The translations under genes and the position numbers were made by a program. From assembly GCA_043228905.1 (NCBI GenBank), contig JBHGNT010000022.1, forward strand, positions 9,486,001 through 9,550,000: a stretch of 64,000 nt of DNA, given 5' to 3'. Position 1 is the stretch's first letter. Each line of letters begins with the position of its first letter. This stretch comes from Azolla caroliniana. Its lineage: Eukaryota > Plantae > Polypodiophyta. This document shows, in pieces, positions 12,931-57,234 of this stretch. The notes under the pieces were generated by a model that searched no databases, was not told where the DNA came from, and worked only from the letters and a program-made list of their open reading frames with translations.

Positions 12931-12971
<41 letters not shown>

Positions 12972-12977
<6 letters not shown>

Positions 12978-29667: not shown

Positions 29668-31250
29668 TGTTGCGAAGTTTCGCGCGTGCGTGTGCTACTC
29701 GAGCGACCACCGGGGCCTTGGACTAGGGAGGACGTTCGCGGAATTATCGAAGAGATGACGATCAATGTAAGATTGGATGAAATTTGTTCGCTTGAGAAGA
29801 AGAAAGACTGTACACTTGAGAAGTAGAAAAATATGAAGAAGATAAAGACGAATATAATTATATTGATGATAGTGGTGTTGGTGATATCACATATTGAGCC
29901 CCCCTTACACAAGCTCAAGTAGAGGCTTTTATAGGTCTTTCCATGCTTGTGACATGCACAAAACCATGGGCTAAAACCATGGTTTTGTGCACACGGTTTT
30001 GCTTATGTCATGCACAAACCATGGGTTTAGAACCATGGTTTTGTGCACATGGTTTTCTATGGTTGTTTCGTTTATAATTTGTATATGAAAAGGAAATACA
30101 TAAAATCTACACTATATGATAGTTGTCCTAGTTGTAAGGCAAATATCTTGTATCTTAGAGGTGTAAGGTTCAAACCTTGCCTGCACCCCTCTGTATGAAC
30201 TCAAGTGCCACTAGGCCTTAGGAGGCTTATTTGCTAAGTGTATGTGCAATGTTGCACATCCTTGGTTTATTCGTCTCACTCGGTTTCACACTGTAGCCGA
30301 AAATCATCACGACATCCACCCCCACCAAACCCGCACATCCTCCGGTATGTGTCGAGAAAGGTGAAGAGGTGAGATCTTTGGCAACTGTGATCAACCGAGT
30401 TCCTCCGCACGCTCGTCTAACTTCGTCTTCCACTTCGAGTATGCCCAATCTTTCCAACCGAACCACCGTAGCCACCCGATCCACCATATCCGGTGCTCAC
30501 ACCTTCTTCCCCGGTCGGTTGTAGTAGATCTACCGAACGATGTCATCGATCCGACCGCTCTTCCTTCGTCTACTACGCGTGTCCTTCGATTGGACTCCTG
30601 GCCAATCCTTGCGCTCACCGTCTTCAACTGGGTATTGTGGATCGTTCGTGTCGATCCCTGATTAGGCTGGGTTTGCCCTTGTCCGGATCGGTCTCCACCG
30701 ATCGCTTCTTGGCTTGGTTGGCCTTCGTCTGCATTCGCATTTCGCCGAGTCGGGCTCAACCGATTGATTCCTGCCGGGTCGGCCCCCTTTTGGATTGGGA
30801 TTGTCCGATCGATTTCGGCCGAATCAGGTTTCGGCCAGGTCGGCCCCGGTCGATCGGCTCCCATGTGGATCTTCCTTCGTTCGGGCTGGAATCCTGGCCG
30901 GATTGTCTTCCGGTTTGACCGCTTCTCGACTCTTCCTTCCTTCTCGCATGCCGCCTCTCCATTGAACTCAACCGCGGCTTCATCCTTGGCCTCCTCGTCG
31001 GCCACATCCTTCCCTCTGTGTATGCTCGCCTCGAGCCATATTGTCTCCTCTCTGCCACCTCCTTTATCTTCAGTCTTATGTCGACACACGGTCTCGATTG
31101 CCAAAGTCTTCGGAACCAATGTGAAGGAATCCCTTCGTTCATGCACATTTACCTTGTCTTCCTCATCTCCCTTCCGGTCGTCCGCTTTTCTGTCCACACA
31201 TTCCGTCTCTCCGGTCTCACGTTGGCGCACGTGCACAACCGCCGAAATCT

Positions 31251-32590
31251 CTAGAATAGGTGTGGGGATATCCTTTCTTCCTCGATCTTCTTCCTCCTTG
31301 TGTTGGGCCTTCGTTCTAATTGTTGAATCCTCGTGGCTAGCAAGTCTTCCCGACTCATTTCCTCTTGCCATGGCAAAGACGTCCACGAAGCAACACTTTG
31401 CTCAATAGGCATTATTGGTTTTTGTCCTAATATGAGTTCGGTGGGCATATATCCCATAGTCGTGCTATGTGTAGTTCTATCTGCCCACAATGCATAAGGT
31501 AGTAATCGTGGCCAATTTCCCATCTTGCCGTCGCAAGCCTTTGCTAGAGCTTTTACAATTGGACTATGTCCTCGTTCCACCTTCCCATTTGCGTCCGGGT
31601 TGTATGCCATGGTGAGCGATAATTTGACGCCTATTCTTGAAAAGAACTCTTTAGCTTCATTCACATCTATGTCTCCTCTATCGGCCACTATTTTTCCGAC
31701 ACATCCGTATCGACAAATAACATCTTCAAGGAGAAATCTACAAACCGCCGAAGTTGTTTTATTCCTTAGCGCCCGTCCTTCTACTTGGTTGGTGAGATCC
31801 TCTCTTGCTAGCACGAGATATTTCAATTGCCCCAATCCCATTGGCATAACCACTATGTCTACCAACCACTTATAGTGCATTGATAATGGATATGTCGGAT
31901 GAAGTTCATCCCTATGTTGAATATTCGAGTATAATTGGCATTGCTCACATGTTTCAACATAGCTTGCTACATCTTTGTAAACACCCGGCCACCAATACTT
32001 CTCCTTGAGCTTTGCAAATGTTGCCCATATACCACGATGACCTGCCCACACACTATCATGAAATTCAACAATTAGTGTTTGTTGATCCTGTTTCTTGCAC
32101 ACCACTCGAAGTGGAGTTCCATTCTTTTTCTTCACAGATTCATCGACTTCCATTCGAGAAGGTTGGCTCGATCCACCGGGCTTCATGCTTGTTTCTCCTA
32201 TCTCTTTTCGTGGCGTAGGTTGGGCTTGTCCTTCTTTCCCTGCATTCCTTGTATTGTGACACTTTGAGGTGCCATCTTCTTCACCGGTTCTTTTCCTCTT
32301 CTCTTTGACAAGAGCCTCATAGTTGTCACACACAACCTCCGCAAAGCTTGTGTTATCGTCGACTGGATCCGACCATCCGGTTACTCGTCGCACATTCCGA
32401 TCAGCATGTTTGAGATCCTCCAAATCTATTTTTCCTTTCTTTTCACACTCGAATACCGTTGGCCAAAACCCAATTCCTGGCTTGATCTTCTTTAGATTCT
32501 CTCTTCTGACTCGTATTCCCGCCGATGCGGCGTAGTGCATGGCTTCCACATGCCTTACATCTTCCTCTTCCACGATCTTTTTCAGCCCGC
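31251..32590 (-). pseudogene. Gypsy F gag C-part fused in frame to integrase
   Basis: Gag matches D to MEVDESVKKK, then H..GHRG..CEQC, VDI, ADRG, VERGH integrase motifs; PR-RT-RH absent. Confidence 0.85.
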
Positions 32591-33184
32591 TGTCGTGAAG
32601 TACGAAAGCTTCACATTAAAAGTCTACAATAAGATAAATACGTAAGGGTCGAAGCACGCTACGGTGTACCAGAAAAGTACTGTTTTTGGCCACAAAAATT
32701 GTCAGTACTTTCAATACTGTTAGTACTGAATAATTCAGAAAAAAAATTAGAGAAAAAGAAAATCGATTTTGGAGAGTGGGGTGACTGTAGTACAAGTGTC
32801 ATTTACTGTAGAAGGAGTGGGGGGAACACGTGAGGAGATGTTCTTCCATTTTGGGGGCTATTTTCCCCTCACGTCGATTTTGGCGCTTCCCCTCACGTCG
32901 TTTTGGCGATTCCCCTCATACTGCTCTTCCTCTATCCCTCTGAGCTTTTCATCACAGACATCCATGTCATGTTTCTGATTTTCCTTCAATCTAAATCTCA
33001 GACATCCATGTTTGGTTGGAGAGTTTGAGTTGAGGATTTCTAATTTTTTTAGGGTTTCTGTTTTTGTTAGGTTTCGGTTGAGGTACAAAGACTGTTCTGA
33101 GGGTTTAGGTAGCAGCCAATAGTCACTTCTTCGACAACGACTTTCTTACTTCCACCGATTGCAGTTGATGTCGTGGTGATTTGG

Positions 33185-33795
33185 GGCTTTTTCCACCAAA
33201 TCGAGGCGGCATTGGAGGTTCCTTCCACCAAATCGAGGCTCCTTCCACCAAATCAAGGCGACATATCCAACGCTCCCTCCACCATTGGAGGTTCCTTCCA
33301 CCAAATCGAGGCTGCATATCCACGCTCCCTCCACCATTGGAGGTTCCTTCCACCAAATCGAGGCGGCATATCCAACGCTCCCTCCACCATTGGAGGTTCC
33401 TTCCATCCATTTTTTTATTTTCAGTACTAAAATGTTTCATTTCTTCATATTTCAGTACTAAATTTTTAGAATTGACATTTGCCATATTTGATATGTAATT
33501 CTAATGTTTGAAACAAAATATTTCTCACTTTGTAGGCCACATTTAAAAACATTTGATTGTGTTTTCTTGGTTGAGTCTATATATCCACGCTCCCTCCACC
33601 ATTGGAGGTTCCTTCCATCCATTTTTTTATTTTCAGTACTAAAATGTTTCATTTCTTCATATTTCAATACTAAATTTTTAGAATTGACATTTGTCATATT
33701 TGATATGTAATTCTAATGTTTGAAACAAAATATTTCTCACTTTGCAGGCCACATTTAAAAACATTTGATTGTGTTTTCTTGGTTGAGTCTATATA
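33185..33795. repeat. Subterminal repeats of the Sola element: ~53-bp units followed by a ~212-bp tandem duplication
   Basis: TTCCACCAAATCGAGGC..CCACCATTGGAGGTTCC repeated; ~33370-33580 duplicated at ~33582-33795. Confidence 0.8.
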
Positions 33796-33849
33796 ACATT
33801 AACTACTTTCGCAAGACACTTAATTTTTGTAGATAAATCTAGTGACCGA

Positions 33850-34455
33850 ATGGGGGTTCCTAACGACAGTGAGTTGTCAAGTAACTCATGCATATCTGAA
33901 AGGACTAAGAGACGAGTGGTTCTTCACATAGTCCGTTATTTGGTAGAAATAACGAAGAGATTTAGTGAAGAGGATCGTAGGGATATTATCTGTAGAGTGT
34001 TACACCATCAAAGTTTGAATGAAGACATGGAGAGAATAAAATTTAGGGACCAATGTGTTTCAGAAGAGATTGTGGAGTCTATGAAGTCATCCCTAGACTT
34101 AGTGAAAGGTGTAGAGAGCTTAGACAAACTTGCTGCAAAGAGGGCAGCCCTACGCATGGTTGTGAACGGTGCGAGAGAAAAAAAATATAGTGATACTAAA
34201 GTTGCCTTAGCCCTGGGTATTCAAAGAAGGAACTTGAGGAAACATCGCCGAAATATACACTCAAGCAAATTCAAGTGGCTGGGGTCGGGACGTAGACGAC
34301 GATGTGATGCCTTATCTCAAGAGATTATTGAGAAAGTGGATTCATTTTGGGCCAAAAATATGCGTGTCTCACCAAATAAGAAGGACGTGTGTAGACAACG
34401 AATAAGTCAGGGTAAGTACCAGATTCACCCTAGACACTTCTTGGAGATGACAGAG
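33850..34455 (+). CDS. Sola2-like transposase exon 1
   Basis: ORF ends GAG|GTATT at a codon boundary; joins exon 2 in frame (HFLEMTE|AELYMNF). Confidence 0.7.
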
Positions 34456-34547
34456 GTATTCCATTTTTTTATATCAATTCACATTCCATAACTTTGTGTT
34501 TTGACCAAGTGTATATTAATGTTTGCTATATATATTGGTTGATGTAG

Positions 34548-35497
34548 GCTGAATTGTACATGAACTTTAAAGACCAACATCCAAGCTTGACTGTCGGATT
34601 CCGCAAGTTCCAAGGTTTGAAACCATTTTATGTTAGAAAATTAAATGAGAGGAATACATGTTGTTGTGTGTACCATGTGAAGATGGACATGTTAAGGCTA
34701 GCAGTGAATGCAATGCGTACTGATTCTAAGGGTATACATGGGGAATTATGTGTCTGCACTTGTGAGATTTGTAGACCAAATGGGGAGGATAATAGGTGTA
34801 ATGCACGAAACATGACTTATGCATCCGTTTCTGAGCTATGGAGGTCTTGTGTTTGTGAAAAAGAACCATCATGTGAGTGGCATCGTCGTACATGTATATT
34901 AAGAACATGTAAGGTTTGTCCGCTACCATTATTTTGTAGGCAGGAGCTTGATATGGGAAATAGTCATATCGTGAAATGGAAATATTTGGAGTATGTGACT
35001 GAAAATATTGGCAAGGGAGTTGTAACTAAGCGTATCAAGGAAGTATATAAGGAGACATGTGCTGCTACCCTTGTCTCAGAATTTAAGAAACAACTTGGGG
35101 AGTTTATTCCACATAACTTCCGGAGTTATTGGCAAAATTCACAGTTCAAGGAATGTATTAATAACTTACCAACGGGTGTCATTGTATCCGTTATTGATTT
35201 TGTAGAAAACTATACATTTAAAGTTCAAAATGAGGTTCAATCAATGCATTGGTACAATGATCAATGTACAATACTTGTACATATTTGCTATTGGAGGCAA
35301 GACGGTGAGTTACATAAGAAATCAATATTTTACATTTCAGATGATAAAAAGCATGATACACTATTTGTTCAACATTGTTTTAAGCTTCACCATGCAGATT
35401 TATTTTCTCTAGGGTTAACCTTTAACCGTCATTGGGTTTGGTCTGATGGTGCTGCCTCGCAGTTTAAGGCGGCACGATCGTTCTACTTTATCGCCAT
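34548..35497 (+). CDS. Sola2-like transposase exon 2
   Basis: TCCCVYH and Cys-rich region; IDFVENY..QSMHW; SDDKKHD; WSDGAASQFK; donor GTAATT at 35498. Confidence 0.8.
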
Positions 35498-35715
35498 GTA
35501 ATTTTTAATCCATATGTTTAGTACTTATCATGCAATGTGTAAGGAAGTAATTCTTGTGTTAGTGGATGCATACTAATTATGTTTGTAACTATTAACAAAC
35601 AGTACTAGTCACATGGATGCATACTAATTATGTTTGTAACTATTCGAATCTTGCACTTGTGAATGGATGCATGCATACTAATTTTGTTTGTATTATGTTG
35701 TACTAAGTAACTTTT

Positions 35716-36997
35716 AATCCATGTGAAGTGTTCTCCATAGACACATTGTACTATGTTGTGTTTACAGAAGGATGTAAAGTACTCATCTTGTACTTAGAGT
35801 ATTGTCCGTCCTTAAGAGAATTGTACTAATGATCTTTTTATCCATGTGAAGTGTTCTCCATAGACACATTGTACTATGTTGTGTGTTGTATCTGTACTAT
35901 GTTGTGTGTATAGAAGGATGTAAAGTACTCATCTTGTACTTAGAGTATTGTCCGTCCTTAAGAGAATTGTACTAATTATGTTTTAATCCATGTGAAGGGT
36001 TCTCCATATACACATTGTACTATGTTGTGTGTTGTATCTGTACTATGTTGTGTTTACAAAAGGATGTAAAGTACTCATCTTGTACTCATAGTATTGTCCG
36101 TCCTTAAGAGAATTGTACTAAGTATCGATTAATCCATGTGAAGGGTTCTCCATAGACACATTGTACTATGTTGTGTGTTGGTTTTGTACTATGTTGTGTT
36201 TACAAAAGGATGTAAAGTACTCATCTTGTACTTATAGTATTGTCCGTCCTTAAGAGAATTGTACTAATTATGTTTTAATCCATGTGAAGGGTTCTCCATA
36301 GACACATTCTACTGTGTTGTGTGTTGTATCTGTACTATGTTGTGTTACAGGAGGATGTAAAGTACTCATCTTGTACTCATAGTATTGTCCGTCCTTAAGA
36401 GAATTGTACTAAGTATCGATTAATCCATGTGAAGGGTTCTCCATAGACACATTGTACTATGTTGTGTGTTGGTTCTGTACTATGTTGTGTTTACAAAAGG
36501 ATGTAAAGTACTCATCTTGTACTTATAGTATTGTCCGTCCTTAAGAGAATTGTACTAATTATGTTTTAATCCATGTGAAGGGTTCTCCATAGACACATTA
36601 TACTATGTTGTGTGTTGTATCTGTACTATGTTGTGTTTACAGGAGGATGTAAAGTACTCATCTTATACTCATAGTATTGTCCGTCCTTAAGAGAATTGTA
36701 CTAAGTATCGATTAATCCATGTGAAGGGTTCTCCATAGACACATTGTACTATGTTGTGTGTTGGTTCTGTACTATGTTGTGTTTACAAAAGGATGTAAAG
36801 TACTCATCTTGTACTTATAGTATTGTCCGTCCTTAAGAGAATTGTACTAATTATGTTTTAATCCATGTGAAGGGTTCTCCATAGACACATTATACTATGT
36901 TGTGTGTTGTATCTGTACTATGTTGTGTTTACAGGAGGATGTAAAGTACTCATCTTGTACTCATAGTATTGTCCGTCCTTAAGAGAATTGTACTAAA
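35716..36997. repeat. 146-bp tandem satellite (9 units) in transposase intron 2
   Basis: TCCATGTGAAG at 35718, 35841, 35987, 36133, 36279, 36424, 36570, 36716, 36862; decayed units continue to ~37510. Confidence 0.95.
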
Positions 36998-37539
36998 TCA
37001 GTATTTACTCATGTTGTACTCATAATATTGTACTCATCTTGTACTCATCTTTTAAACACACTGTGTGGTACTGATTATCTATTAATCAATGTTCAACGTT
37101 CTCCATGAACACACTGTATTGTACTATGTGTTGTATCTATACTAAATCAGTGTTTATTGGGGGATGTAAAGTACATGTCTTGTAGTACTAATGATCTTCT
37201 AAGGAGGGTTGTGTTCTCCGTGGACACATTGTATTGTACTATCCGATATTGAACATTTTGTACTATTTATCTGTTAATACATGTAGAGTGCTTTCCATGA
37301 ACTCATTGTACTATACTTTGTGTGCTATATCCATACTAAGTTAGTATTAAATGGATGCCAGGTACTATTGGTCGACAACATAGTACTATTTATCTTTTAA
37401 TAAGTGTAGAGTGTTCTCAATGGATACGTTGTGTTATGCTTTGTTTTGTATTTGTACTAAATCAGTATTAATGGAAGTGTAGTACTCTCAATTGACAACA
37501 TAGTACTAATTTTGTTGGAAACTTGAGATACCAAAGCAG

Positions 37540-38120
37540 GTATTTCTCCTTATTCAATATTCGTATGCAATGGAATTACTTCGGGTCTGGACATGGAAAA
37601 GGAGAGCATGATGGCGCGGGGGCTGTGATCAAACGTGCCCTTACAAGTGAGCAGTTGGATAATAATGGCGCTAAGTTACAAAATGCACATGATGTTGTGT
37701 AGTGGCTAACATGGAAGATGTCAAATGATGGTAAGAACAGATTGTTTGTTGAAGTTCGCGCTGATGAGGTCGATAGAACTAAATCATATGGTTGTAAAAC
37801 CGTGAAAGGCACACGCAACACCCATTGTGTGTTAGGGTTTAGCCGCAAGGACACAACCCAATTGTTACTCCGTAGTTTATCATGCTTTTGTTCCATGTGT
37901 CTAGATGAAGCTTGGGATAAATGCATCAACCTATCAATCGTGGAGCCCTGGAAGCTGCAAAAGCTTGAGCCTGAACGACAAGATGATATTGAAGAGGATG
38001 TGCATTCAAAAGATATTGTATACTACAACCAAAATCAAGACTTGGCAGTTTTATTGGAAGTTGGAGATCATTTTGCAGTGCTCAAATATTCTCAGAATGA
38101 AGATTTAGAAGACTACTACA
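37540..38120 (+). pseudogene. Sola2-like transposase exon 3 (one in-frame stop at ~37700)
   Basis: Acceptor CAG|G at 37539; WNYFGSGHGKGEHDGAGAVIKR; VKGTRNTH; LSCFCSMC; 3' end uncertain. Confidence 0.78.
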
Positions 38121-38956
38121 TTGCATGTACAAACCATGTCAAACACACAATAACCCTAAATAGTCGGAAAAAAACTCATCCATGTCAAACACACAGACAA
38201 TAAAAACAGACGGATAGGAAAGTCAAAGAAAACGAAAACATTGTAAATCATCATAGCCAACTCCATCACATCGCATGTACAAGCCATGTCAAACACACAA
38301 AAACCCAAAATAGTCGGAAAAACACTCATCCATGTCAAACTCACACAAAATAAAACAGATGGACAGGAAACAAGAACAAAACGAAAACATAGCAACTCAT
38401 CATAGCCAACTCCATTTACGTTGCATGTACAAACATGTCTAACACACAACCACCTCGATCAAAATATTGTCATACATTTTTAAAAGAAACACAGAGAAAC
38501 ACAGAGAAAACAAAAACATACCAGTTGGGCATGCAACACATAGACTATGAATAATCAAACCCTAAAAATGGCCATACACATGCAAATAAAAAACAGACAC
38601 ACAGGAAACATTCAGAAAAAGAAAACATACCAGTTGGGCATGCAACACAGAGAATACCTGGAGGTCGTACAACTTGCAGAGGTACCACACCGTGTTGATT
38701 TCGACTAACGAGGCTGCTGCAGAGGAGACAAACGAGCATAGACAGAGGAAACAAACGAGCATACACAAGGAAGGAAAATCAACAACACATACAACGAGCA
38801 GGGGAAACAAAAATATCTGCGTATAAAGAGTTCAGAGATCGAACCTGGCACAGAGGGGAACACAAGAACAACTATGCGGGGAAACAGAGAATCGAAGGTG
38901 GAGTGAGAGAGAGAAACAGAAAGAAAGAAAGAAACAGAGCTTTGAAGGTGGAGTGA

Positions 38957-39111
38957 GAAAGAAAGAAAGAAAGAAAGATATATTAACGTCTTCTAAGGCC
39001 AAAATTGGCCCATGAGACAAATGGTTTACAACAAAAATGGGATATTTACCCATTCATCGAAGTAAAAATAAAAATAAGATGAAAAATAGAGTTTAAGCTA
39101 AATAGTTCTAA
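38957..39111 (-). mobile_element. Short 3'-UTR copy of the RTEX-like LINE
   Basis: Near-identical to ~12985-13122 (GAAAGATATATTAACGTCTTCTAAGG..CCCATGAGACAA..), in a GA/GAAA-rich tract. Confidence 0.75.
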
Positions 39112-39194
39112 CAGAGAAAGAGAGAGATAGACCTGTAACAGATATGTCGTCTTTCTTTAACTTTCTGCCACTGTCTGTCTGACAACTTCGAGAC

Positions 39195-39236
<42 letters not shown>

Positions 39237-40635
39237 GTGAGAGAGAGAGAGACATACCAATTGACACGTTCGACTACCCATACCAGAGAGAGAGAGAGAG
39301 AGATATACTGAGACTGACCAACTGTCACAATGGATACCTTCTCCAGGTGTGCTTTCGTACAACTCTACCTAGGAGACTGGGGCAACAATTAATGTATTAA
39401 ATATGGCCTAGGGACATTTTGAGTGTGACATACAATATCTTTGTGCATTCGAGTGTGACGTAATGAATTTGTTTTTTGTTTTTTAAAACTTATTTACAAT
39501 TTTTAATGTTTATTTTCTTCTTCGATTTAGTACTAAATTTTTGGCCAAAAGTTGGTACACCGTAGCATGCTTCGACCTGTAACTAAAATAACATTTGATC
39601 ATGTTTTATATATAAAGATAATATTAACAACACATGATAATATTATATATATGTAAAGAAAAATAATATATATATATAGATAAATATATTATATTACACG
39701 AACAAGAGAGGACTTGAACCAATAACCCCACCCTATGACTCTCAAATCTTACCATTTATTCTATACTAGTAATATATATAAAATAAAGCATACTTTATAT
39801 ATACTTTATATTACATAAAGGATTTGCTTCATGATATAAAAATAAAGTTGTATATTGTATTCAATAGTATTTTGAGACTCAAACCCACAACCTCATACAC
39901 CAAAGTCAACACACCTACCATTAGGCTAGGCCCTTTCTCTTTAAGATTATATTTTGATGTTTATTGTTATTCCAGATATTGGTTCATACATAAAAGCTCA
40001 AATGAACGAGATGTTTATCATGCATCACATGTAATGCATGAACGCCAAATGGCGATCATGCATCACATGCATGACTTGTACCCTCCAATGCATCATATGC
40101 ATGGGGGCACCTATTTAAATGGTGAAAGAGAAGATCAAAGGGGGATATGTATAAGATATCAATCAAATTATGTATTACATAAGAGATACCATAAAAATAG
40201 AGAAAGAAGGGACGAAGTTTAATATAAACGTGGAGCTCTAGCTTGGCGGTCGTGGTGGTCGACTCTCAACAAGAGGGAGGCGGTTCGAGCCTTATCTTCA
40301 TCAAAATATTGAAGTGAAGATTGTAGTGGTCTACGATCAAGAAAGAGAAGAGCGATTACCTTGCAAGACAAAGTTCGGAGGTTCAACGATGACAATCATT
40401 TTGTAACTCTTTCATGAAAATGATTATAAATTTCATACACTTTCTCATCTTATATCTTATCTTGTCTTATCTTATATTCCTTAAAAATCCTATTTTGTCA
40501 TATCTTATTGATCTCTATTCACTCTATCTCTACTCTTTCGTCTCTTCTGTCCATAATCCCTGTGATTCCTTCCTCACTTTCACGTTATCCTTTGTGTGCG
40601 CAACGCTCCGCTTCTAGGCAAGCCACGTCACGACA

Positions 40636-41615
40636 CCGCCTCTTCCGAAGTTCACTCGTAGCGGCTTTCGGGTCTCGCTTGAGTGAATCATGTTGCCGTC
40701 CAAATAGACGACATTCTTGCGAATCTCGTCTTGCAAGTCAGTGCACTCCCTTCGTGAGTGCTCGAAGCTGTCGCACCACACACATCTATATGCTTCTTTT
40801 CCCTTTGACCCGTGTCGACCTAAGTTGGCCAATGATAGCGCTTCAAACTTCTTGGAGAGCTCTTCGATTATAGATTCCTCCATCGCTTTCTTGTCGAAAT
40901 TGTTGATCGGCTTGTTAAACTCAATCGTCACAGGTGCATTCCTCCTCCACGATTGTGGATTCTCCATATCAGTTTCCTCTTGCCATTGTCGACGCTTATC
41001 AAGACGACTACAAGCCTTCTTCACCGCCGCCCAGTCCGCCACCAAGTCATTTGGTTGTGTTTCATCCTCCAAAAAGTTATCCAATTCACGCCGATCTTTG
41101 GCATCCACTGCCTTCAGGAATAGTAGGACTTTATCTCCATCGAGAACTCGTTGATCAACACTCGGAAGTCGGTTATACTTCTGGTCGAATTCGGCATATA
41201 CTCCAGACGCACACATATTCTTCCCTTTCTTCTCGATCCAAGACATTAGCGTATGTCGAGTCATCCGCGATGCGTCTTCAAGCATGTATTCGGCGAGAAG
41301 CGCCTTTTCAAACTCCGCCCAAGTTGCATGTTCGCTTTGGATCTCCATGATGCGCTCGCGGATCTGTGGTTCCACCACACGTTTGAAGCTAGAAATTTGT
41401 TTGAGATCGTTGACATCCCTTTGTTGCATCTCGTTCCGATAGGTAGCAAGAAGATCCATGATGTTCTTGCCACCAAATCGTCCAGCTATCTCGACCGTAC
41501 GATCAACAACTTTGTCGATTAAAGCTTCTCGATCTCTCACCTTCAGCATGTATTCCACTATGGACACCATACCTTTTGTTAATTCCTCTCCTTGAGTTCC
41601 GCTTGTTGAAGCCAT
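40636..41615 (-). pseudogene. Gypsy F gag N-part (interrupted by H)
   Basis: MASTSGTQGEELTKGMV..CVWCDSFEHSRREC, highly similar to D gag. Confidence 0.9.
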
Positions 41616-42311
41616 TGTTGCACTTGATATCCTTCCTATCGCCTCTTTCACGTTGGGTTCACCACTTGATGTCGCGAAGTTTCGCGCGTGCGTGTGCTAC
41701 TCGAGCGACCACCGGGGCCTTGGACTGGGGAGGACTTTCGCGGAATTATCGAAGAGATGACGATCAATGTAAGATTGGATGAAATTTGTTCGCTTGAGAA
41801 GAAGAAAGATTGTACACTTGAGAAGTAGAAAAATATGAAGAAGATAAAGACGAATATAATTATATTGATGATAGTGGTGTTGGTGATATCACATATTGAG
41901 CCCCCCTTACACAAGCTCAAGTAGAGGCTTTTGTAGGTCTTTCCATGCTTGTGACATGCACAAAACCATGGGCTAAAACCATGGTTTTGTGCACACGGTT
42001 TTGCTTATGTCATGCACAAACCATGGGTTTAGAATCATGGTTTTGTGCACATGGTTTTCTATGGTTGTTTCGTCTATAATTTGTATATGAAAAGGAAATA
42101 CATAAAATCTACACTATATGATAGTTGTCCTAGTGGTAAGGCAAATATCTTGTATCTTAGAGGTGTAAGGTTCAAACCTTGCTTGCACCCCTCTGTATGG
42201 ACTCAAGTGCCACTAGGCTTTAGGAGGCTTATTTGCTAAGTGTATGTGCAATGTTGCACATCCTTCGTTTATTCGTCTCACTCGGTTTCACACCATAGCC
42301 GAAAATCGTCA

Positions 42312-44806: not shown

Positions 44807-45626
44807 TGTTGAAAACCAGTGCTCGGCCACAACCGAGGAACTGGATCGATCAACTCACAGAAAACGGGAAATACAATATGCACGAAGACAACTGAGAGAA
44901 AGGTACACAGGATGTTTTACGTGGAAAACCCTAAATGGGAAAAACCACGGGAGTCCTCAAACTCCAACTATCAGTATAAACAGAGGTGTACAATGGTGAA
45001 GCTACAAGGCAACAACCTTGAGCTCACTGTCTTCGCCACAGGCGGCGGTAATACACAGAGGCAACGACCTCTTCGTCTCTCTCTCTTTCTCTCTCTCGGC
45101 TGCTCTCTTCGCTCTCTCTAAGTGAGAAACAGAAAAATGAGCAACAACACATAAACTGTTTGCCCTAAGTCATATTTATACACATATGACTTTCGGGCTA
45201 TTTACAAAATATAGCCTCAATGGCTCTTAGCAAACATATTCACAAATATGTCCCTGCATCCGGATCTCTCTCCGGGTACATTCATCATCCGGCTCCGTAG
45301 CCGGGGTCTTCAGCATCCAGCTCCGTAGCCGGGGTCTTCATCATCCGGATCCGTATCCGGGTACTCTTCATCCGGCTTCATGCCGGGTGGTCTTCATCAT
45401 CCGGTTCCGTAACCGCAACCGGGCTTGCCGTCATTTATCTCCGGGGACATCCCATCCGGAGGGACCGAAATCCCAACAAACTCCCCCTTCACTTGTCAGG
45501 AACTCTATTAAGGCAGAGAAGGAATTAGTACTAAAAGAAGGATTAGTACTATTGTTGGGGAATAGTACTAAGACAGAGAAGGATTAGTACTATGAGAGGT
45601 GTCGAACTTTGAGAGAAGGAATGAGT

Positions 45627-45662
<36 letters not shown>

Positions 45663-45951
45663 TGATGCGAAAGATATATGTATTATATGACGGAAGATAT
45701 ACAACAGTAGTTAGAAGGCTTAAGACTGGCGTTGAACCGATTTGGTTCGAACTAATGCCTTGCGCCTCCTTTTATAGTGTCTTCAGGAATACTCCTGAAG
45801 TTTCTAGAATGTTCCAGAGAAATCTGGAATATACATCAATTTCCTAATAAAACCTAAATGAAAATAATATCCTTCAAATTACAACTCATAACCTAATGGT
45901 AAAGTCTCGACCCGTGTAACAAAAGGTTATGGGTTCGAGTCTCGAGTCTAG

Positions 45952-48900
45952 TTATGACACTATCCCCCCTTTAAAACGACGAGTTTCACGAGTCGTTTTG
46001 GATTGAGGACCCGGTTTCTCGGGATATCGTCGATGGAAGTCTTCTAGAAGAGCACGAGCATTGGTCACATTCTCGATCGGTTCCCAAGTACGCTCGCTGG
46101 GACTATATCCTAGCCAATCGACTAGATAGTAGAGCTTGTTGCGAACAATCTTGGAATCGAGGATGGCAGCGACCTCATACTCAGGTCCATCTTCGAGCTC
46201 GATAGGAGGTGGAGGTTGTATAGTACGTCCTGGGATGGTGCTCTCGTGATAGGGTTCGAGGAGAGAACTATGAAACACCGGGTGTATCCGAAGTTGCGGA
46301 GGTAGCTCGAGACGAAAAGCGACATCATTAATCTTCCCGATAATACGGAAAGGACCTAATCGTCGATAATCCAACTTCTCACATGGGCGAGTAGTCTTGA
46401 TGTGTCGTCGTAGCAGCCACACCCGATCTCCAATGTTAAAACTGGATGGAAGTCGATGACGATCTGCGTAGTCCTTGTGTGATTGTTGAGCTTGCTGGAG
46501 TTGAGTAGATAAATCCGCTTGTATCTTGCGTAACCGCTCCAAACGATCCTCCGCGCAAGGATTTGTGGACACTTCTGGGGTTTCAAGGACACACCACCGG
46601 GGATGATATCCCGTATAAGCGTAGAATGGCGTGACTTTAGTCGATGCGTGGATAGCGTTATTATAGGCAAATTCGGCGAACTGAAGAATATCTGCCCAGT
46701 CATTCTGATGATAGTTGAGAAAGCACCGCAGATACTGCTCCAGTGTTTGATTTGTTCGTTCGGCTTGACCGTCGGTTTGTGGGTGGTAGCCGGAGGAGAG
46801 GTTACAAGTGACCTTCAGCATTTTAAAAAGGTGCTTCCAGAATTTTGACACAAACTGGGGTCCACGATCGCTGATGATATTATCAGGGAGTCCATGATGC
46901 CGACATACTTCCCGCATGACAATTTCGGCGGTGTCTTCACTAGATATTTCTTTAGTACATGGTAAGAAATGAGCCATCTTCGTATATCGATCCACCACTG
47001 TGAGAATCGCACTGAATCCCTTAGAGACTGGAAGATCTGTAATGAAGTCAAGAGCAATGGATTGCCATGGCTTGCTTGGAATTGGTAATGGTTCTAATAA
47101 ACCATATGGATGATGTCTTGGCATTTTCGCTCTGCAGCATGTATCGCAAGTCCGAACAAAATCTTCGACAAATTGTCGCATACGGGGCCACCAGAATGAT
47201 CGTTGTACTAAATCTAATGTTTTAGTACTACCAAAATGTCCTGCTGTATATGTGTCATGGCAGTTTTGTACTACTCGAAGGCGGCAAGAACCATTAGGAA
47301 CATACAAAAGTTCTTTAAAGAAGAGTAATCCATCACAGTATTTGAATTGCCGATAATCCGTACCTGGTGATTGTGATTGTGAACATGACGCTCGAGAGGG
47401 GTCAATTTGTGCTAGTATAGCTTGGGCGAAAGCGTCAGTCTTCAAGTCCTCACGTATAGTATTGGTAATGTCGGAATCCACGGGCATGTCAAAGATCTGT
47501 GCTGCTTGCAGTCGTGCTGGACCCAAGATTACTTGCTTCTGGTTATCGAAAGCTGGCTCACCGGGACGTGGTGTTAGATACGAACGCCGTGATAATGCAT
47601 CTGCCTTCCCTTGGTGCTTCCCCGGACGATATGTAATTTTGAAGTCGAAGCGTGTGAGGAAGTGGGCCCACCGAGCTTGACGTCGATTCAGTACACGAGC
47701 ATCTTGAAAGTAGGCAAGGTTCTTGTGGTCACTGAATACAGTGACCTGATGAGGAGATCCCTCCAGGAAATGCCTCCATTGCATAAAAGAATCAACTATT
47801 GCTAATAGCTCTTTATCATGAATTTCGTAGTTGATTTCGGCGGCGTCAAACTTACGGGAGTGGAAAGCCACAGGATGTAGCTTCTCGTCGTTACCCTGTT
47901 GTGACAGAATGCTCCCCAATGCGAAATCCGATGCATCAGCTTCGATAATGAATGGTTTTTCCGGATCCACATGACCTAAAATTGGAGCTGATGTAAACGC
48001 CTTCTTAAGACTCTCGAAAGCCATGTCCGTCTCTTTAGACCAAATGAATGATTGTCCCTTCCTGGTGAGCTGTGTGAGAGGCAGCACAATTTTTGAGTAA
48101 TTTTGTATGAACTTCCGGTAGAAATTTGCAAAGCCTAGGAAGCATTGCACATCCCGCACCGAACGCGGAGTGTGCCATTCTATCACCGTTTTGACCTTGG
48201 CTGGGTCCATAGATATGCCTTCTGAGGAGATGACATAGCCGAGAAACTCCACTTGGTTGCACCCGAAACTACATTTCTCTAATTTTGCATACAGACCATG
48301 TTCTCGAAGTCGTTTTAGTACTAATAGTACATGAGAATCATGTTCTTCTTGGGTCTTTGAATAAACCAGTAGATCATCCAAATAGATGATCAAAAAATCA
48401 TCCAAGAGATCTCGAAATATATCATTCGCCATGTGCTGGAAGACTGCCGGCGCATTAGTGAGTCCGAACGGCATGACCGTATACTCGAAGTGCCCATATC
48501 TGGTGCGAAACGCGGTCTTCCATTCATCTCCTGGTCGGATCCGTACGAGGTTATAGGCTCCTCGTAAGTCGATCTTCGTGAAGAACCTGGCACCGTTGAT
48601 CCGTTCTAAAAGACTTGAGATAAGGGGAAGAGCATACCTATTTCTTACTGTGACCTTATTCAAGCCACGGTAATCTACAACGAGTCGAAGCGAGCCATCT
48701 TTTTTCTTGACGAAGAAAATGGGTGCGCCGGCTGGAGATTTCGAATGCCGAATGAAACCGTTCTCCAAATTCTCCTCTATATAGGCTCGAAGGACTTCTA
48801 GCTCGGTTGGTGACAAATTGTAGATCGGCCCCCATGGCGGCTCTTTTCCCGGTTGTAAGTCGATGGCGCAGTCGTACGGCCGATGATGAGGAAGTGTGTT

Positions 48901-49548
48901 GGCTTGTACTTTATCGAACACATCAGCATACTGACGATACTTCTCGGGAAGTTGAACGGTGGACTCCTCTTTGGTGGTGCTGGAGGGTTGTACTGATATT
49001 GCAAAGAGAAACATTTCCTCCTTGCGCCCTTCCTCACGCAACTGACGTAGCGAAATGGTTGCAACCTTCTGGGTAGATCCTTGGGTTTGTCGCAACCGGA
49101 TTTCCCTTGTCCTCCAATCTATGTCTGGGTCATGTAACTCGAACCATGGTAATCCTAAAACTATGGGATGTTCTGGAATACTAATAATATTAAATGATAC
49201 TACACATGTTAAGTTATCTAGGACAATATTAACGGGTTCCGACTCTTCTATGATATTACCAGAAGCAATGGGACGACCATCAATGACTACTACTGAGGCT
49301 GGACATGGGAGCTTTCTGAGAGATATCTGATGAGCTCGGGCAAAATTCCTATCCATGAAGCAAGAATTAGCTCCGGAATCTAGAAGGGCTAAGGTATGTA
49401 CTGGAGGGGTACTTTTAGTACTAACTGCTACTTGGACTACGAACACATCACTAACTTGCTTAGAGGGAATGGAACCACTAATGGGCTGCACAGATCTAGG
49501 GCTGTCCAACCAAACGGCTCCTATTTTGGCTGGACTTAGTCGTTTAAC
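45952..49548 (-). CDS. Gypsy I pol: PR-RT-RH-IN-chromodomain (probably via -1 frameshift from gag)
   Basis: LLDSGA, YLDD, DASD, HHCC, DFITDLP..SDRG..E, GPF, YEVAAILDS..YLVDWLGY..TWEP; uninterrupted. Confidence 0.95.
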   Translation of the reverse strand, partial: VKRLSPAKIGAVWLDSPRSVQPISGSIPSKQVSDVFVVQVAVSTKSTPPVHTLALLDSGANSCFMDRNFARAHQISLRKLPCPASVVVIDGRPIASGNIIEESEPVNIVLDNLTCVVSFNIISIPEHPIVLGLPWFELHDPDIDWRTREIRLRQTQGSTQKVATISLRQLREEGRKEEMFLFAISVQPSSTTKEESTVQLPEKYRQYADVFDKVQANTLPHHRPYDCAIDLQPGKEPPWGPIYNLSPTELEVLRAYIEENLENGFIRHSKSPAGAPIFFVKKKDGSLRLVVDYRGLNKVTVRNRYALPLISSLLERINGARFFTKIDLRGAYNLVRIRPGDEWKTAFRTRYGHFEYTVMPFGLTNAPAVFQHMANDIFRDLLDDFLIIYLDDLLVYSKTQEEHDSHVLLVLKRLREHGLYAKLEKCSFGCNQVEFLGYVISSEGISMDPAKVKTVIEWHTPRSVRDVQCFLGFANFYRKFIQNYSKIVLPLTQLTRKGQSFIWSKETDMAFESLKKAFTSAPILGHVDPEKPFIIEADASDFALGSILSQQGNDEKLHPVAFHSRKFDAAEINYEIHDKELLAIVDSFMQWRHFLEGSPHQVTVFSDHKNLAYFQDARVLNRRQARWAHFLTRFDFKITYRPGKHQGKADALSRRSYLTPRPGEPAFDNQKQVILGPARLQAAQIFDMPVDSDITNTIREDLKTDAFAQAILAQIDPSRASCSQSQSPGTDYRQFKYCDGLLFFKELLYVPNGSCRLRVVQNCHDTYTAGHFGSTKTLDLVQRSFWWPRMRQFVEDFVRTCDTCCRAKMPRHHPYGLLEPLPIPSKPWQSIALDFITDLPVSKGFSAILTVVDRYTKMAHFLPCTKEISSEDTAEIVMREVCRHHGLPDNIISDRGPQFVSKFWKHLFKMLKVTCNLSSGYHPQTDGQAERTNQTLEQYLRCFLNYHQNDWADILQFAEFAYNNAIHASTKVTPFYAYTGYHPRWCVLETPEVSTNPCAEDRLERLRKIQADLSTQLQQAQQSHKDYADRHRLPSSFNIGDRVWLLRRHIKTTRPCEKLDYRRLGPFRIIGKINDVAFRLELPPQLRIHPVFHSSLLEPYHESTIPGRTIQPPPPIELEDGPEYEVAAILDSKIVRNKLYYLVDWLGYSPSERTWEPIENVTNARALLEDFHRRYPEKPGPQSKTTRETRRFKGGIVS
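49495..49548 (-). promoter_or_regulatory. Predicted -1 ribosomal frameshift signal
   Basis: G_UUA_AAC in gag frame, 6-nt spacer, 11-bp stem GUCCAGCCAAA/UUUGGUUGGAC, loop UAGG can pair with downstream CCUA. Confidence 0.75.
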
Positions 49549-50705
49549 TCTTCTTCTAATTGGCTAAGGACATCAAATTTGTTTGCGAGATTCGGACTAT
49601 TAGTACTATTAAGACTATTATGACTATGAGGATTATCAGAGATTCCTACTGACATAGACTCGGGTTTAGTATAGTCAGAACTAACAATGACTTGGTTTAC
49701 CTGCCTTCTTGGTCTATGGGGACAGTTTATCGCGATATGCCCTGGTCCACCGCAATAAAGGCATAATCGGTTTGTTCGGCGTCGTTGCTTTTCCTCCTCC
49801 GATAGCGGCCCACGACGACGTGTAGTGTCAATTTCCATTGGAGTTGGAGTACTTACTGGAGGCGCATTATGTGACTCCCTTTGAAAAGGTTTCGCTACCA
49901 CTGAGGCATAGGTAGGCTCGGATCTTGCCCTCGGCATCTGAAATTGTCGTTCCGAACGTCGCTCGAAGAGGCGGTTGTCACATCTGACCGCTCGACTGAT
50001 TGCTTCTGTTAATGATTTTGGCTCTTCAGGGAAAGTCAAGAGTAAATCCTTGACATCGTTGCGTAGACCATAGCGGAACTGCTCCATCAATGCTTGATCA
50101 TCCCAGGGGATATCGGCGGCGAGTAGGCGGAAATCTGCAGCATATGCGGAGGCTGGACGGTCACCTTGGCGTAATCGCCGGATTTTGTTGATTGCAGTCC
50201 TTATGCTGTCAGTATCTCCAAAACATGCTTTAAACTCACTTATGAATTCTTCAAAATTATTTAGTACTGGAGATTCCTTTTCTAGTAGCGGAGCGAACCA
50301 TGCTAATGCTGAGCCATTTAACAACGTGCCTACTAAACCCACTCGTGATGCATCGGTGGGATATCGGGACGGATGCATTTGAATAACTAACCGTACCTGG
50401 TTAAGAAACCCTCTAAACTGCGATCGCGTTCCATCGAACTTCGTGGGAAGGCCAATCTTGGGTTCTTTATGAATCCCTTGTGCTCCGTGCCCTTGTTGTT
50501 GCATTGCTACGATGGTTGCTTCGAGTTGTTGCACGCGTAACGCAAGTTCCCCATGCTGTTGTTGCGTTTGCTGCTTTTCTAAGGAAATTTGCTGAAGATC
50601 CCCCAACAAGCGTTGATTTTCTTGTTCCAAAGCATGAAACTTCTCTTTCAAGCATTGAAATTCCGAGAAAACGGATTGATACTCTTCAGCGCTAACGGTG
50701 GCCAT
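49536..50705 (-). CDS. Gypsy I gag (389 aa)
   Basis: PTKFDGTRSQFRGF, LRQG, PTPMEID, CLYCGGPGHIAINC. Confidence 0.95.
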   Translation of the reverse strand: MATVSAEEYQSVFSEFQCLKEKFHALEQENQRLLGDLQQISLEKQQTQQQHGELALRVQQLEATIVAMQQQGHGAQGIHKEPKIGLPTKFDGTRSQFRGFLNQVRLVIQMHPSRYPTDASRVGLVGTLLNGSALAWFAPLLEKESPVLNNFEEFISEFKACFGDTDSIRTAINKIRRLRQGDRPASAYAADFRLLAADIPWDDQALMEQFRYGLRNDVKDLLLTFPEEPKSLTEAISRAVRCDNRLFERRSERQFQMPRARSEPTYASVVAKPFQRESHNAPPVSTPTPMEIDTTRRRGPLSEEEKQRRRTNRLCLYCGGPGHIAINCPHRPRRQVNQVIVSSDYTKPESMSVGISDNPHSHNSLNSTNSPNLANKFDVLSQLEEELND

Positions 50706-50778
50706 GGGATGAAGGAAAAGGGAAATAAGAGACTAGTAGGAAAGGAGAGAGACAGAAGGAAGAGGGAGACTAGTAGGG

Positions 50779-50791
50779 CAAATCGGTTCAA
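50779..50791 (-). promoter_or_regulatory. Self-priming PBS of Gypsy I
   Basis: Sense TTGAACCGATTTG is the reverse complement of the LTR sequence at 51034-51046, ~32 nt downstream of TATAAAAG. Confidence 0.8.
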
Positions 50792-50926
50792 ACTGTCAGG
50801 AACTCTATTAAGGCAGAGAAGGAATTAGTACTAAAAGAAGGATTAGTACTATTGTTGGGGAATAGTACTAAGACAGAGAAGGATTAGTACTATGAGAGGT
50901 GTCGAACTTTGAGAGAAGGAATGAGT

Positions 50927-50964
<38 letters not shown>

Positions 50965-51261
50965 TGATGCGAAAGATATATGTATTATATGACGGAAGAT
51001 ATACAACAGTAGTTAGAAGGCTTAAGACTGGCGTTGAACCGATTTGGTTCGAACTAATGCCTTGCGCCTCCTTTTATAGTGTCTTCAGGAATACTCCTGA
51101 AGTTTCTAGAATGTTCCAGAGAAATCTGGAATATACATCAATTTCCTAATAAAACCTAAATGAAAATAATATCCTTCAAATTACAACTCATAACCTAATG
51201 GTAAAGTCTCGACCCGTGTAACAAAAGGTTATGGGTTCGAGTCTCGAGTCTAGTTATGACA

Positions 51262-55338: not shown

Positions 55339-56041
55339 TTTCTGTGTTACCGTCGCTCTGATACCACTTTGTTGAAAACCAGTGCTCGGCCACAACCGAG
55401 GAACTGGATCGATCAACTCACAGAAAACGGGAAATACAATATGCACGAAGACAACTGAGAGAAAGGTACACAGGATGTTTTACGTGGAAAACCCTAAATG
55501 GGAAAAACCACGGGAGTCCTCAAACTCCAACTATCAGTATAAACAGAGGTGTACAATGGTGAAGCTACAAGGCAACAACCTTGAGCTCACTGTCTTCGCC
55601 ACAGGCGGCGGTAATACACAGAGGCAACGACCTCTTCGTCTCTCTCTCTTTCTCTCTCTCGGCTGCTCTCTTCGCTCTCTCTAAGTGAGAAACAGAAAAA
55701 TGAGCAACAACACATAAACTGTTTGCCCTAAGTCATATTTATACACATATGACTTTCGGGCTATTTACAAAATATAGCCTCAATGGCTCTTAGCAAACAT
55801 ATTCACAAATATGTCCCTGCATCCGGATCTCTCTCCGGGTACATTCATCATCCGGCTCCGTAGCCGGGGTCTTCAGCATCCAGCTCCGTAGCCGGGGTCT
55901 TCATCATCCGGATCCGTATCCGGGTACTCTTCATCCGGCTTCATGCCGGGTGGTCTTCATCATCCGGTTCCGTAACCGCAACCGGGCTTGCCGTCATTTA
56001 TCTCCGGGGACATCCCATCCGGAGGGACCGAAATCCCAACA

Positions 56042-56823: not shown

Positions 56824-57234
56824 CCACACAAGTAAGTTTAAAAAAAAAAAAAAAGAGAGAATAAAGGAGCGAATCAAATAAATCATGGAAAGGAGTGGTG
56901 GAAACGGCCATGCACACGAGGAGTAAAGAGGCACGTCGAAAAGGTACGAGGAGCTATGAATAGGACATTAAACCAACGCCACATGGCACGCAATGCTATT
57001 ATAGTACACGACCTGCACATGCGGAGGCTCGAAAAAGGCGCCAAGATGCAGAGAGAAAAACCCCCACGCATTGAGACCTTCTCCTATCGCGAACCAAGGA
57101 GAACAAACGCAGAGCAACGCGTGAAGATACATCATAGAGAGCTCGCACACAGAGAACCCCCTCCCTTAGAACTTTCTCTCTCACATTCTCCCCACCATCA
57201 AACCTCTCCGACGCTCTCCGCCCTCGACGCAGAG

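What the first reader, a model, noticed from the sequence alone, without database searches (positions are those of the whole stretch)
32646..39578. Near-complete, intron-containing Sola2-type DNA transposon in a plant genome
Seen: 26-bp TIRs, GGG...CCT termini, 4-bp TSD GTAA, and a three-exon transposase with DFVENY / SDGAASQFK / GHGKGEHDG blocks and one visible in-frame stop. The splice joins 34455/34548 and 35497/37540 keep the frame, which the ORF track misses. Known as I recall it: Sola2 has 4-bp TSDs and GRG..CYC ends, and Sola elements are mainly reported outside seed plants. Inference: an under-described plant Sola2 lineage that moved relatively late, since it lies inside six other elements.
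Basis: partly seen in the sequence, partly recalled or inferred. Interest (0 to 1): 0.7.

Follow-up and report, generated by a model that had tools for sequence, protein, structure and literature searches.

The report
Dead copy of two-gene Sola2 transposon
This is a broken, internally deleted copy of a young family of cut-and-paste jumping genes, likely from a fern, whose full-length members carry a second gene with a RING finger that likely binds short repeated palindromes in the element's own introns and would help it escape host silencing.

Summary
The transposon is real. TIRs, GTAA target duplication, three exons and the stop are where stated. 27 of 28 other paired copies have an exact 4-bp duplication; the catalytic motifs match published Sola2 alignments, not Sola1 or Sola3. 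'Near-complete' is wrong. Nine copies compared at the junction hold about 6 kb that this copy lost through a 6-bp microhomology at 38118-38123. The lost part covers the last ~100 transposase residues (a predicted BAH-like domain), a captured piece of a host Urb2-like gene, and a tail-to-tail five-exon gene of about 940 aa (unknown domain, coiled coil, RING-H2, acidic tail). That gene is under purifying selection, travels with the transposase in a divergent family, has Adiantum homologues, and is spliced in RNA of related elements. Both long introns are rich in WGTACW palindromes. Seven sister copies differ by 0-2 of 2100 bases with both genes open. Plant Sola2 is already catalogued (moss, conifer; Sola in ferns); I found no RING accessory gene in print. 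The scan noted a similar two-gene Sola2 elsewhere in this genome (e1-10618503). The anti-silencing role is untested.

The parts
32642..32645 (+). left target site duplication GTAA
   Evidence: 4-bp TSD rule from 27 of 28 other copies
32646..32671 (+). left 26-bp TIR (GGG end)
32672..33095 (+). left subterminal region with WGTACW motifs (4 in the first 450 bp of the element, 0.37 expected)
33191..33795 (+). 53-bp and 212-bp tandem repeats upstream of the transposase start, variable in number between copies
33850..34455 (+). transposase exon 1 (from ATG; start codon inferred)
34456..34547 (+). intron 1, 92 bp, GT..AG; join seen in 6 polyA reads and one contig of related elements
34548..35497 (+). 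transposase exon 2: Cys-rich region, D419 (DFVENY, 35196) and D502 (SDG, 35445)
35498..37539 (+). intron 2, 2042 bp here (415-1691 bp in other copies), with 146-bp array (35747-36996) rich in WGTACW; join seen in one contig of a run whose RNA status is a guess
37540..38123 (+). transposase exon 3, truncated: D543 (HGKGEHDG, 37610), premature TAG 37700-37702, only the first ~25 residues of the predicted BAH-like domain
38118..38123 (+). ACATTG microhomology at the ~6-kb internal deletion; junction unique in G000
38124..39552 (-). non-coding right arm: inferred promoter and 5' leader of the deleted second gene (its ATG lies ~90 bp inside the deleted part in full copies), 150-bp duplication, AG tracts
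39553..39578 (-). right 26-bp TIR (terminal C changed to T)
39579..39582 (+). right target site duplication GTAA

Best explanation
This is a dead, internally deleted copy of a young two-gene Sola2 cut-and-paste transposon family whose full-length members pair a DDD transposase with a tail-to-tail RING-finger gene that likely binds the element's own WGTACW palindrome arrays and would counter host silencing. Shown: ends, 4-bp TSD, copy number, the deletion, the open frames of both genes in sister copies, motif enrichment, and CG/CHG-biased decay. From established knowledge of RNase H-fold transposases: D419/D502/D543 hold two metal ions, cut at the TIRs and join the ends into a target with a 4-bp stagger, which repair turns into the TSD. 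Predicted: a C-terminal BAH-like domain that would read chromatin, and introns 2-4 of the second gene. Inferred and untested: the second protein's N-terminal domain recognises the palindromes, its coiled coil scaffolds a complex, and its RING-H2 ubiquitinates chromatin or silencing factors on the element. This copy makes neither protein but keeps both TIRs, so it could only move in trans. Odds by step: Sola2 0.93; deletion derivative 0.97; second gene a selected accessory gene 0.85; motif-guided anti-silencing about 0.35-0.4.
For: Family and TSD. Motifs match Sola2 rows such as DFAENY..VQDEIQS.HW, SDG...Q.K and HGK..CDG.GG; the integrase/transposase fold was found for homologue P0001, 49% identical to exon 2, best Z 10.7, rmsd 3.5, 159 aligned. 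Residues 510-627 of that model match only BAH-containing chains, nine entries at Z 6.1-7.0. Deletion. Second gene: exon 1 anchor in 24 of 24 other copies, all five exons in 21, open frame in 14 of 21; transposase open in 12 of 20 scored; both open in 10 of 24. dN/dS: transposase 0.15; second gene 0.46 for residues 1-401 between subfamilies and 0.36-0.43 against a 56-60% identical family. Same tail-to-tail layout in 2 of 4 divergent G000 loci and 2 of 12 metagenome contigs. RING plus coiled coil is kept in a 21% identical homologue. Stranded polyA reads lie on opposite strands for the two genes, and 17 reads end exactly at the RING exon acceptor and run on into an exon-1-like end. WGTACW observed against expected: 33 vs 9.1, 26 vs 4.8, 15 vs 2.5 and 13 vs 3.5 in long introns that do not align with each other; 3 vs 2.8 in exons; 8 vs 6.5 in a host gene. 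VANC precedent of motif arrays in accessory-gene introns (PMC5735166 passages).
Against: No binding, ubiquitination or methylation data. The N-terminal domain has no Pfam or Atlas hit. The RING scores below Pfam's cut-off (22.1 vs 27.3 bits). dN/dS of the acidic tail is 0.73, and the between-subfamily value rests on 29 changes. Older copies carry many C>T changes at CG and CHG (37 and 47 vs 14 CHH on 106/104/643 sites, 8 copies), so copies were methylated for much of their life. GTAC also sits in the TIR and left subterminus, which fits a transposase site equally well. RNA reads are mostly 80-95% alike, so they come from relatives, and depth is low. Copies were chosen by TIR match or top transposase score, so the open-frame fractions are biased upward. 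2 of 4 divergent loci and 10 of 12 contigs showed no transposase in the DNA held, many of them short.
Confidence: 0.55

Rival explanations
1. The second gene is a transposition cofactor like MURB, TnpA or the Harbinger DNA-binding partner: it loads or regulates the transposase (for example by ubiquitin-driven turnover) rather than fighting silencing.
For: Tail-to-tail two-gene layout and strict co-inheritance; motif also in the left subterminus; MURA-MURB interaction precedent (PMC12973397 passages); copies are methylated.
Against: Most motifs lie deep in introns, far from the ends, and the right 450 bp is not enriched (1 vs 0.8). Animal Sola2 elements are recalled to be single-gene.
Confidence: 0.27
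2. The second gene is passive cargo, like the Urb2 fragment, and the GTAC arrays are transposase sites or neutral repeat expansions.
For: The family does capture host DNA; Sola2 elements swap 3' passengers such as Fanzor (PMC3627910 passage); the tail evolves fast.
Against: dN/dS is 0.36-0.43 at dS 0.6-0.8 and splice sites are conserved, while the Urb2 piece is frameshifted in young subfamilies. No non-transposon host source appeared among 116 scored matches (flanks checked for only 4 divergent ones). The RING is kept at 21% identity.
Confidence: 0.13
3. The element belongs to another superfamily (Sola1, Sola3, or an unnamed DDD group).
For: No labelled profile could be run; Pfam gives no hit; the tree had no labelled references; one moss cluster hits both Sola1 and Sola2 profiles.
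Against: All three catalytic blocks and the CVC..H region match the Sola2 alignment. The segments read of the Sola1 and Sola3 consensus differ.
Confidence: 0.05

Closest known systems
Sola2 DNA transposons (Repbase group; alignment in PMC3627910 Additional file 10, part 1 of 2 read)
   Same: DF[AS]ENY, SDG...Q[YF]K and HGKG..DG.G blocks, Cys-rich insert, TIRs, 4-bp TSD
   Different: Spliced transposase with a predicted C-terminal BAH-like domain; 12-13 kb; second RING gene; TSDs not limited to AT-rich sites
Ceratodon purpureus Sola2 cluster_4006 (PMC12973397 Table S2 row)
   Same: 26-bp TIR starting GGGT with a similar core, 4-bp TSD, about 11 kb, recently active, seed-free plant
   Different: Only 'Sola2' is listed as domain; I saw only the first ~400 letters of its sequence, so a second gene there is unchecked
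VANDAL/VANC of Arabidopsis (PMC5735166 passages)
   Same: Accessory gene, short motif amplified by tandem repeats in introns, tandem peptide repeats in the accessory protein
   Different: VANDAL is a MULE; no RING or ubiquitin is mentioned in that paper's main text; no sequence link found; the motif here is palindromic
Sola elements with passengers: Sola2-Fanzor of Dictyostelium (PMC3627910) and Sola1-1_Ec32 with ParB-methyltransferase (PMC12477816 passages)
   Same: Large Sola elements with a second, spliced gene
   Different: Different passenger: unknown domain plus coiled coil plus RING-H2
MuDR MURA/MURB (PMC12973397 passages)
   Same: Two-gene TIR element with an accessory protein; convergent layout of MuDR recalled
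   Different: Other superfamily; no RING reported in that text

Membership tests
Sola2 | DDD triad in Sola2-type sequence blocks | tested here: met
   D419, D502, D543 compared by eye with 14 rows of the published alignment
Sola2 | RNase H/integrase-type fold | tested here: met
   Model of homologue P0001 (49% to exon 2), pLDDT 82.9; best Z 10.7, rmsd 3.5, 159 aligned; the spliced protein itself was not folded
Sola2 | 4-bp TSD (PMC10741241, PMC3627910 passages) | tested here: met
   27 of 28 other copies plus this one
Sola2 | TIRs with GRG...CYC ends (rule recalled; Bao 2009 not held) | tested here: met
   GGG...CCC in 26 of 28 other copies; the two exceptions are single G>A or C>T terminal changes
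Sola2 | Profile score or tree grouping with labelled Sola1/2/3 | not testable with these tools
   No labelled references or runnable profiles; the tree of 34 unlabelled rows left the window row unplaced
Sola1 | First-D block fDlqkvlslP...fyykrk (profile positions 5-30 read) | tested here: not met
   against IDFAENYTFKVQNEVQSMHW
Sola3 | P..yrEkqsdyfgkkGislh block (profile positions 17-42 read) | tested here: not met
Autonomous element (this copy) | Intact transposase frame | tested here: not met
   Stop at codon 573 and loss of ~100 C-terminal residues
RING-H2 E3 ligase (second gene, other copies) | C3H2C3 ligand spacing | tested here: met
   Residues 341-382; zf-RING_2 E 1.8e-4 but below the gathering score; homologue P0072 passes zf-RING_11
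RING-H2 E3 ligase (second gene, other copies) | Ubiquitin ligase activity | not testable with these tools
   Needs an in vitro assay
VANDAL/VANC-type anti-silencing system | MULE transposase | tested here: not met
   Sola2 motifs and 4-bp TSD
VANDAL/VANC-type anti-silencing system | Short motif amplified in intronic tandem repeats | tested here: met
VANDAL/VANC-type anti-silencing system | Accessory protein binds the motif and lowers methylation | not testable with these tools
   No binding or methylome data
BAH domain (transposase C-terminus) | BAH fold | tested here: inconclusive
   Nine BAH-containing chains at Z 6.1-7.0, rmsd 2.6-3.7, 77-94 aligned, on a 636-aa homologue model; no Pfam hit; domain not folded alone

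The most novel reading that the evidence does not exclude
Fern Sola2 transposons carry a self-addressed ubiquitin ligase: a sequence-specific DNA-binding RING protein that docks on palindrome arrays in the element's introns and ubiquitinates chromatin or silencing factors there, alongside a BAH-tipped transposase that reads histone marks; ten intact copies, seven nearly identical, make it an active and testable system.
Probability: 0.3. Interest if true: 0.8.

Novelty: new variant of a known kind. Interest (0 to 1): 0.5.

Why it matters
Sequence-specific anti-silencing by a transposon protein is known to me mainly from VANDAL/VANC. A second, unrelated solution using a RING ligase in another superfamily and plant lineage would show convergence and give a new handle on how transposons disarm CG/CHG methylation. 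Intact, near-identical copies would also offer a first plant Sola2 for transposition assays and possible tagging in ferns. If the second gene proves mere cargo, this is an ordinary dead copy of an already catalogued plant Sola2 lineage.

Tried and rejected
Pfam found nothing for the transposase exons. Atlas gave no usable hit for the second gene's exon 1 and only unrelated helical-repeat clusters for the host exon. Fold searches of the second gene's model returned only coiled coils; the N-terminal domain (about residues 55-160) was not searched alone, so its fold is untested, not new. A homodimer prediction was not run, so dimerisation is open. The look-up of sequencing runs listed no RNA holder on record, which is no evidence either way. 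The + strand GT..AG join at L122:3477-3604 in one low-depth contig is antisense to the second gene and was disregarded. Minus-strand reads over the Urb2 fragment may come from the host gene and were not counted as element expression. The 188-aa frame as a third transposon gene was rejected: it is 92-93% identical to a host exon, broken in young subfamilies, and absent from the divergent family. Alternative TSD lengths were rejected. The deleted form as an amplified non-autonomous family was rejected: junction found once. MITEs: none of 30 TIR loci had a second exact TIR within 1.5 kb, which is not a full search. The tree was uninformative for membership. A sixth enclosing element was not resolved. 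Bao 2009 and Yuan and Wessler 2011 are not held, so the GRG/CYC rule is recalled; a search for it found nothing.
Full report
Observation. The element spans 32646-39578 between GTAA duplications, with 26-bp TIRs matching at 24 of 26 positions. Both splice joins are GT..AG and in frame. The spliced frame from the ATG at 33850 carries DFVENY, SDGAASQFK and GHGKGEHDG and one stop at codon 573. The 25-nt TIR core has 173 exact hits in the 523-Mb genome G000 and 0 for the reversed control. Exact 4-bp duplications of variable sequence flank 15 of 16, 8 of 8 and 4 of 4 other paired copies; the control gave 2 of 240. Two of ten copies fetched were dropped because no left TIR was found in range. Family ends are GGG...CCC.

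Twelve copies picked by exact TIR pairs are 8.2-13.2 kb. In the nine compared at the junction, 3.8-6.9 kb lies between two ACATTG hexamers that are fused in the window at 38118-38123; the other three have deletions of their own. The junction occurs once in G000, so it is a private microhomology deletion. It removes the last ~100 of 813 transposase residues, a captured host fragment and a whole second gene. The intact transposase frame is open in 12 of 20 scored copies; 4 of 24 lacked a splice anchor and were not scored. These copies were chosen for TIR match or top score, so the fraction is biased upward.

Classification. The catalytic blocks match the published Sola2 alignment (PMC3627910 Additional file 10, part 1 of 2 read) and not the Sola1 or Sola3 profile segments I read (PMC5751038 supplement parts 56 and 70). 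This comparison was by eye. An AlphaFold model of homologue P0001 (49% identical to exon 2) has the integrase/transposase fold. Its residues 510-627, 37% alignable with exon 3 overall, match only BAH-containing chains at middling Z 6.1-7.0. Named homologues among 36 hits are from Klebsormidium and Calypogeia. A tree without labelled references was uninformative.

The second gene. It lies tail-to-tail with the transposase and has five exons, GT..AG in 20 of 21 complete copies, giving about 940 aa, open in 14 of 21. It has a basic N-terminus, a ~110-aa helical domain with no Pfam or Atlas match, a long coiled coil, a C3H2C3 RING at 341-382 and an acidic repetitive tail. dN/dS is 0.46 (residues 1-401) and 0.73 (tail) between young subfamilies, and 0.36-0.43 against four decayed copies of a 56-60% identical family; the transposase gives 0.15 and 0.19-0.31. 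A transposase lies tail-to-tail in 2 of those 4 loci and in 2 of 12 metagenome contigs, many of them short. A profile search gave 42 proteins. Of 10 proteins looked up (8 second-gene relatives, 2 more being transposases among them), the two with an organism name are from the fern Adiantum nelumboides, which is my basis for calling the host likely a fern. A 21% identical homologue keeps domain, coiled coil and RING.

RNA. Three stranded polyA runs of coded organism A were laid on two full copies. Reads are few and mostly 80-95% alike, so they report related elements, not this copy. Transposase and second-gene regions are read on opposite strands. Intron 1 is joined in 6 reads of one run and one contig; intron 2 only in one contig of a run whose RNA status is a guess. 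Seventeen reads in X7 stop matching exactly at the RING exon acceptor and continue in letters that translate like the exon-1 end of homologue P0042. Introns 2-4 of the second gene are predicted only.

Motif. WGTACW is 3-6-fold enriched over dinucleotide shuffles in the long intron of each gene and in the divergent family's introns (0 of 500 shuffles reached the count in the four whole introns tested). These introns do not align with one another. It is also enriched in one 146-bp unit (5 vs 0.8) and in the left 450 bp, but not in exons, the right 450 bp or a host gene; one 104-bp unit (13 of 500) and the 5' part of the window's intron 2 (35 of 500) were weaker. It recurs in the coding repeats of the second gene's tail. 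This parallels VANC targets (PMC5735166 passages). GTAC also lies in the TIR, so a transposase site is not excluded.

Age and decay. The window copy is 10 of about 2100 bases from the subfamily majority, 5 of them C>T/G>A at CG or CHG, including the stop and the DFAENY change. Eight older copies show 37 CG, 47 CHG and 14 CHH transitions, so the host methylated them. Seven copies of another subfamily differ by 0-2 of 2100 bases with both genes open. Five enclosing layers were resolved: solo LTR 32591-40635, then 29668-42311, 26970-60545, 17351-61836 and 4058-62233.

Captured DNA. About 0.8 kb between the two stops is 92-93% identical, in its best blocks, to an exon of a gene at G000:C8:7.03 Mb. 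Downstream frames of that gene hit Pfam Urb2 in order, each below the cut-off; the Urb2 guess came first from recall.

Literature. Passages read: PMC6786969 (Azolla rich in SOLA), PMC6890710 (Sola in Ceratopteris), PMC10741241, PMC4455052, PMC12477816, PMC5751038, PMC3627910, PMC5735166, PMC12973397 (plus its 4 Sola rows: Ceratodon twice, Rhytidiadelphus, Cibotium), bioRxiv 10.64898/2026.07.23.736688 (Sola2 in Cupressus; its table and supplements unseen) and 10.1101/2021.09.26.461848. A term search of bioRxiv 10.64898/2026.08.24.746577 found no Sola or RING. Bao 2009 and Yuan and Wessler 2011 were not held. Searches listed no paper describing a Sola element with a RING accessory gene; Repbase reports, subscription journals and bioRxiv supplements were not searchable and may hold one. 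The scan's own unreviewed note e1-10618503 reports a 9.9-kb two-gene Sola2 with RING and palindrome arrays elsewhere in this genome. I reached my reading before seeing it, it is not independent support, and sequence look-ups found no look-alike, so it may be another family.

Verdict. A real but dead copy of a known superfamily already catalogued in plants. The value lies in the family: a young two-gene Sola2 with a RING accessory gene, motif arrays and a predicted BAH-tipped transposase. New variant of a known kind; interest 0.5.

Noticed in passing
G000:C2:25758772-25770646 (L115-L116) and six sister copies: Subfamily with a GGGTAG left TIR; 7 copies differ by 0-2 of 2100 transposase bases, with both genes open; about 16 equal-scoring copies. 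Candidate currently active element.
   Followed up: partly
L139:6297-8219 (G000:C8:7.03 Mb); L051:6405-7252: Host Urb2-like gene is the likely source of a ~0.8-kb fragment captured between the two genes' stops; absent from the divergent family.
   Followed up: yes
L149-L156; L161-L172: Divergent sister family with a 56-60% identical second gene, 63-87% identical transposase segments, TIR starting GGGTGAAAGCAC (closer to the Ceratodon Sola2 TIR) and TAGTACTAA-rich introns of different sequence.
   Followed up: partly
window 44807-56041: Copia-type element with 100% identical 672-bp LTRs and TSD GAAGC, itself holding a chromodomain Gypsy element (45494-51261, LTRs 99.6%, TSD TCACT): very recent LTR activity.
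   Followed up: partly
window 32591-40635: The direct host is a ~1.1-kb solo-LTR-like insert (TGTCGTGA...TCACGACA) with a 4-bp duplication CCGC; the transposon sits 55 bp inside its end.
   Followed up: partly
window 12933-13121: 78% similar to 38902-39110 in the element's right arm; may be a remnant of a related element or shared AG-rich sequence.
   Followed up: no
G000:C9:12809425-12817662 (L065): 8.2-kb copy with both TIRs and TSD that lacks the transposase and is rearranged, keeping the second gene's first two exons.
   Followed up: no
window 56842-58758: Extra frames downstream of the integrase in the 26970-60545 Gypsy element with no Pfam hit in the frames scanned.
   Followed up: no
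P0032: A distant Sola2-type transposase (1122 aa) has a C-terminal GDGNCFPR stretch recalled as OTU/vertnin-like; not tested.
   Followed up: no
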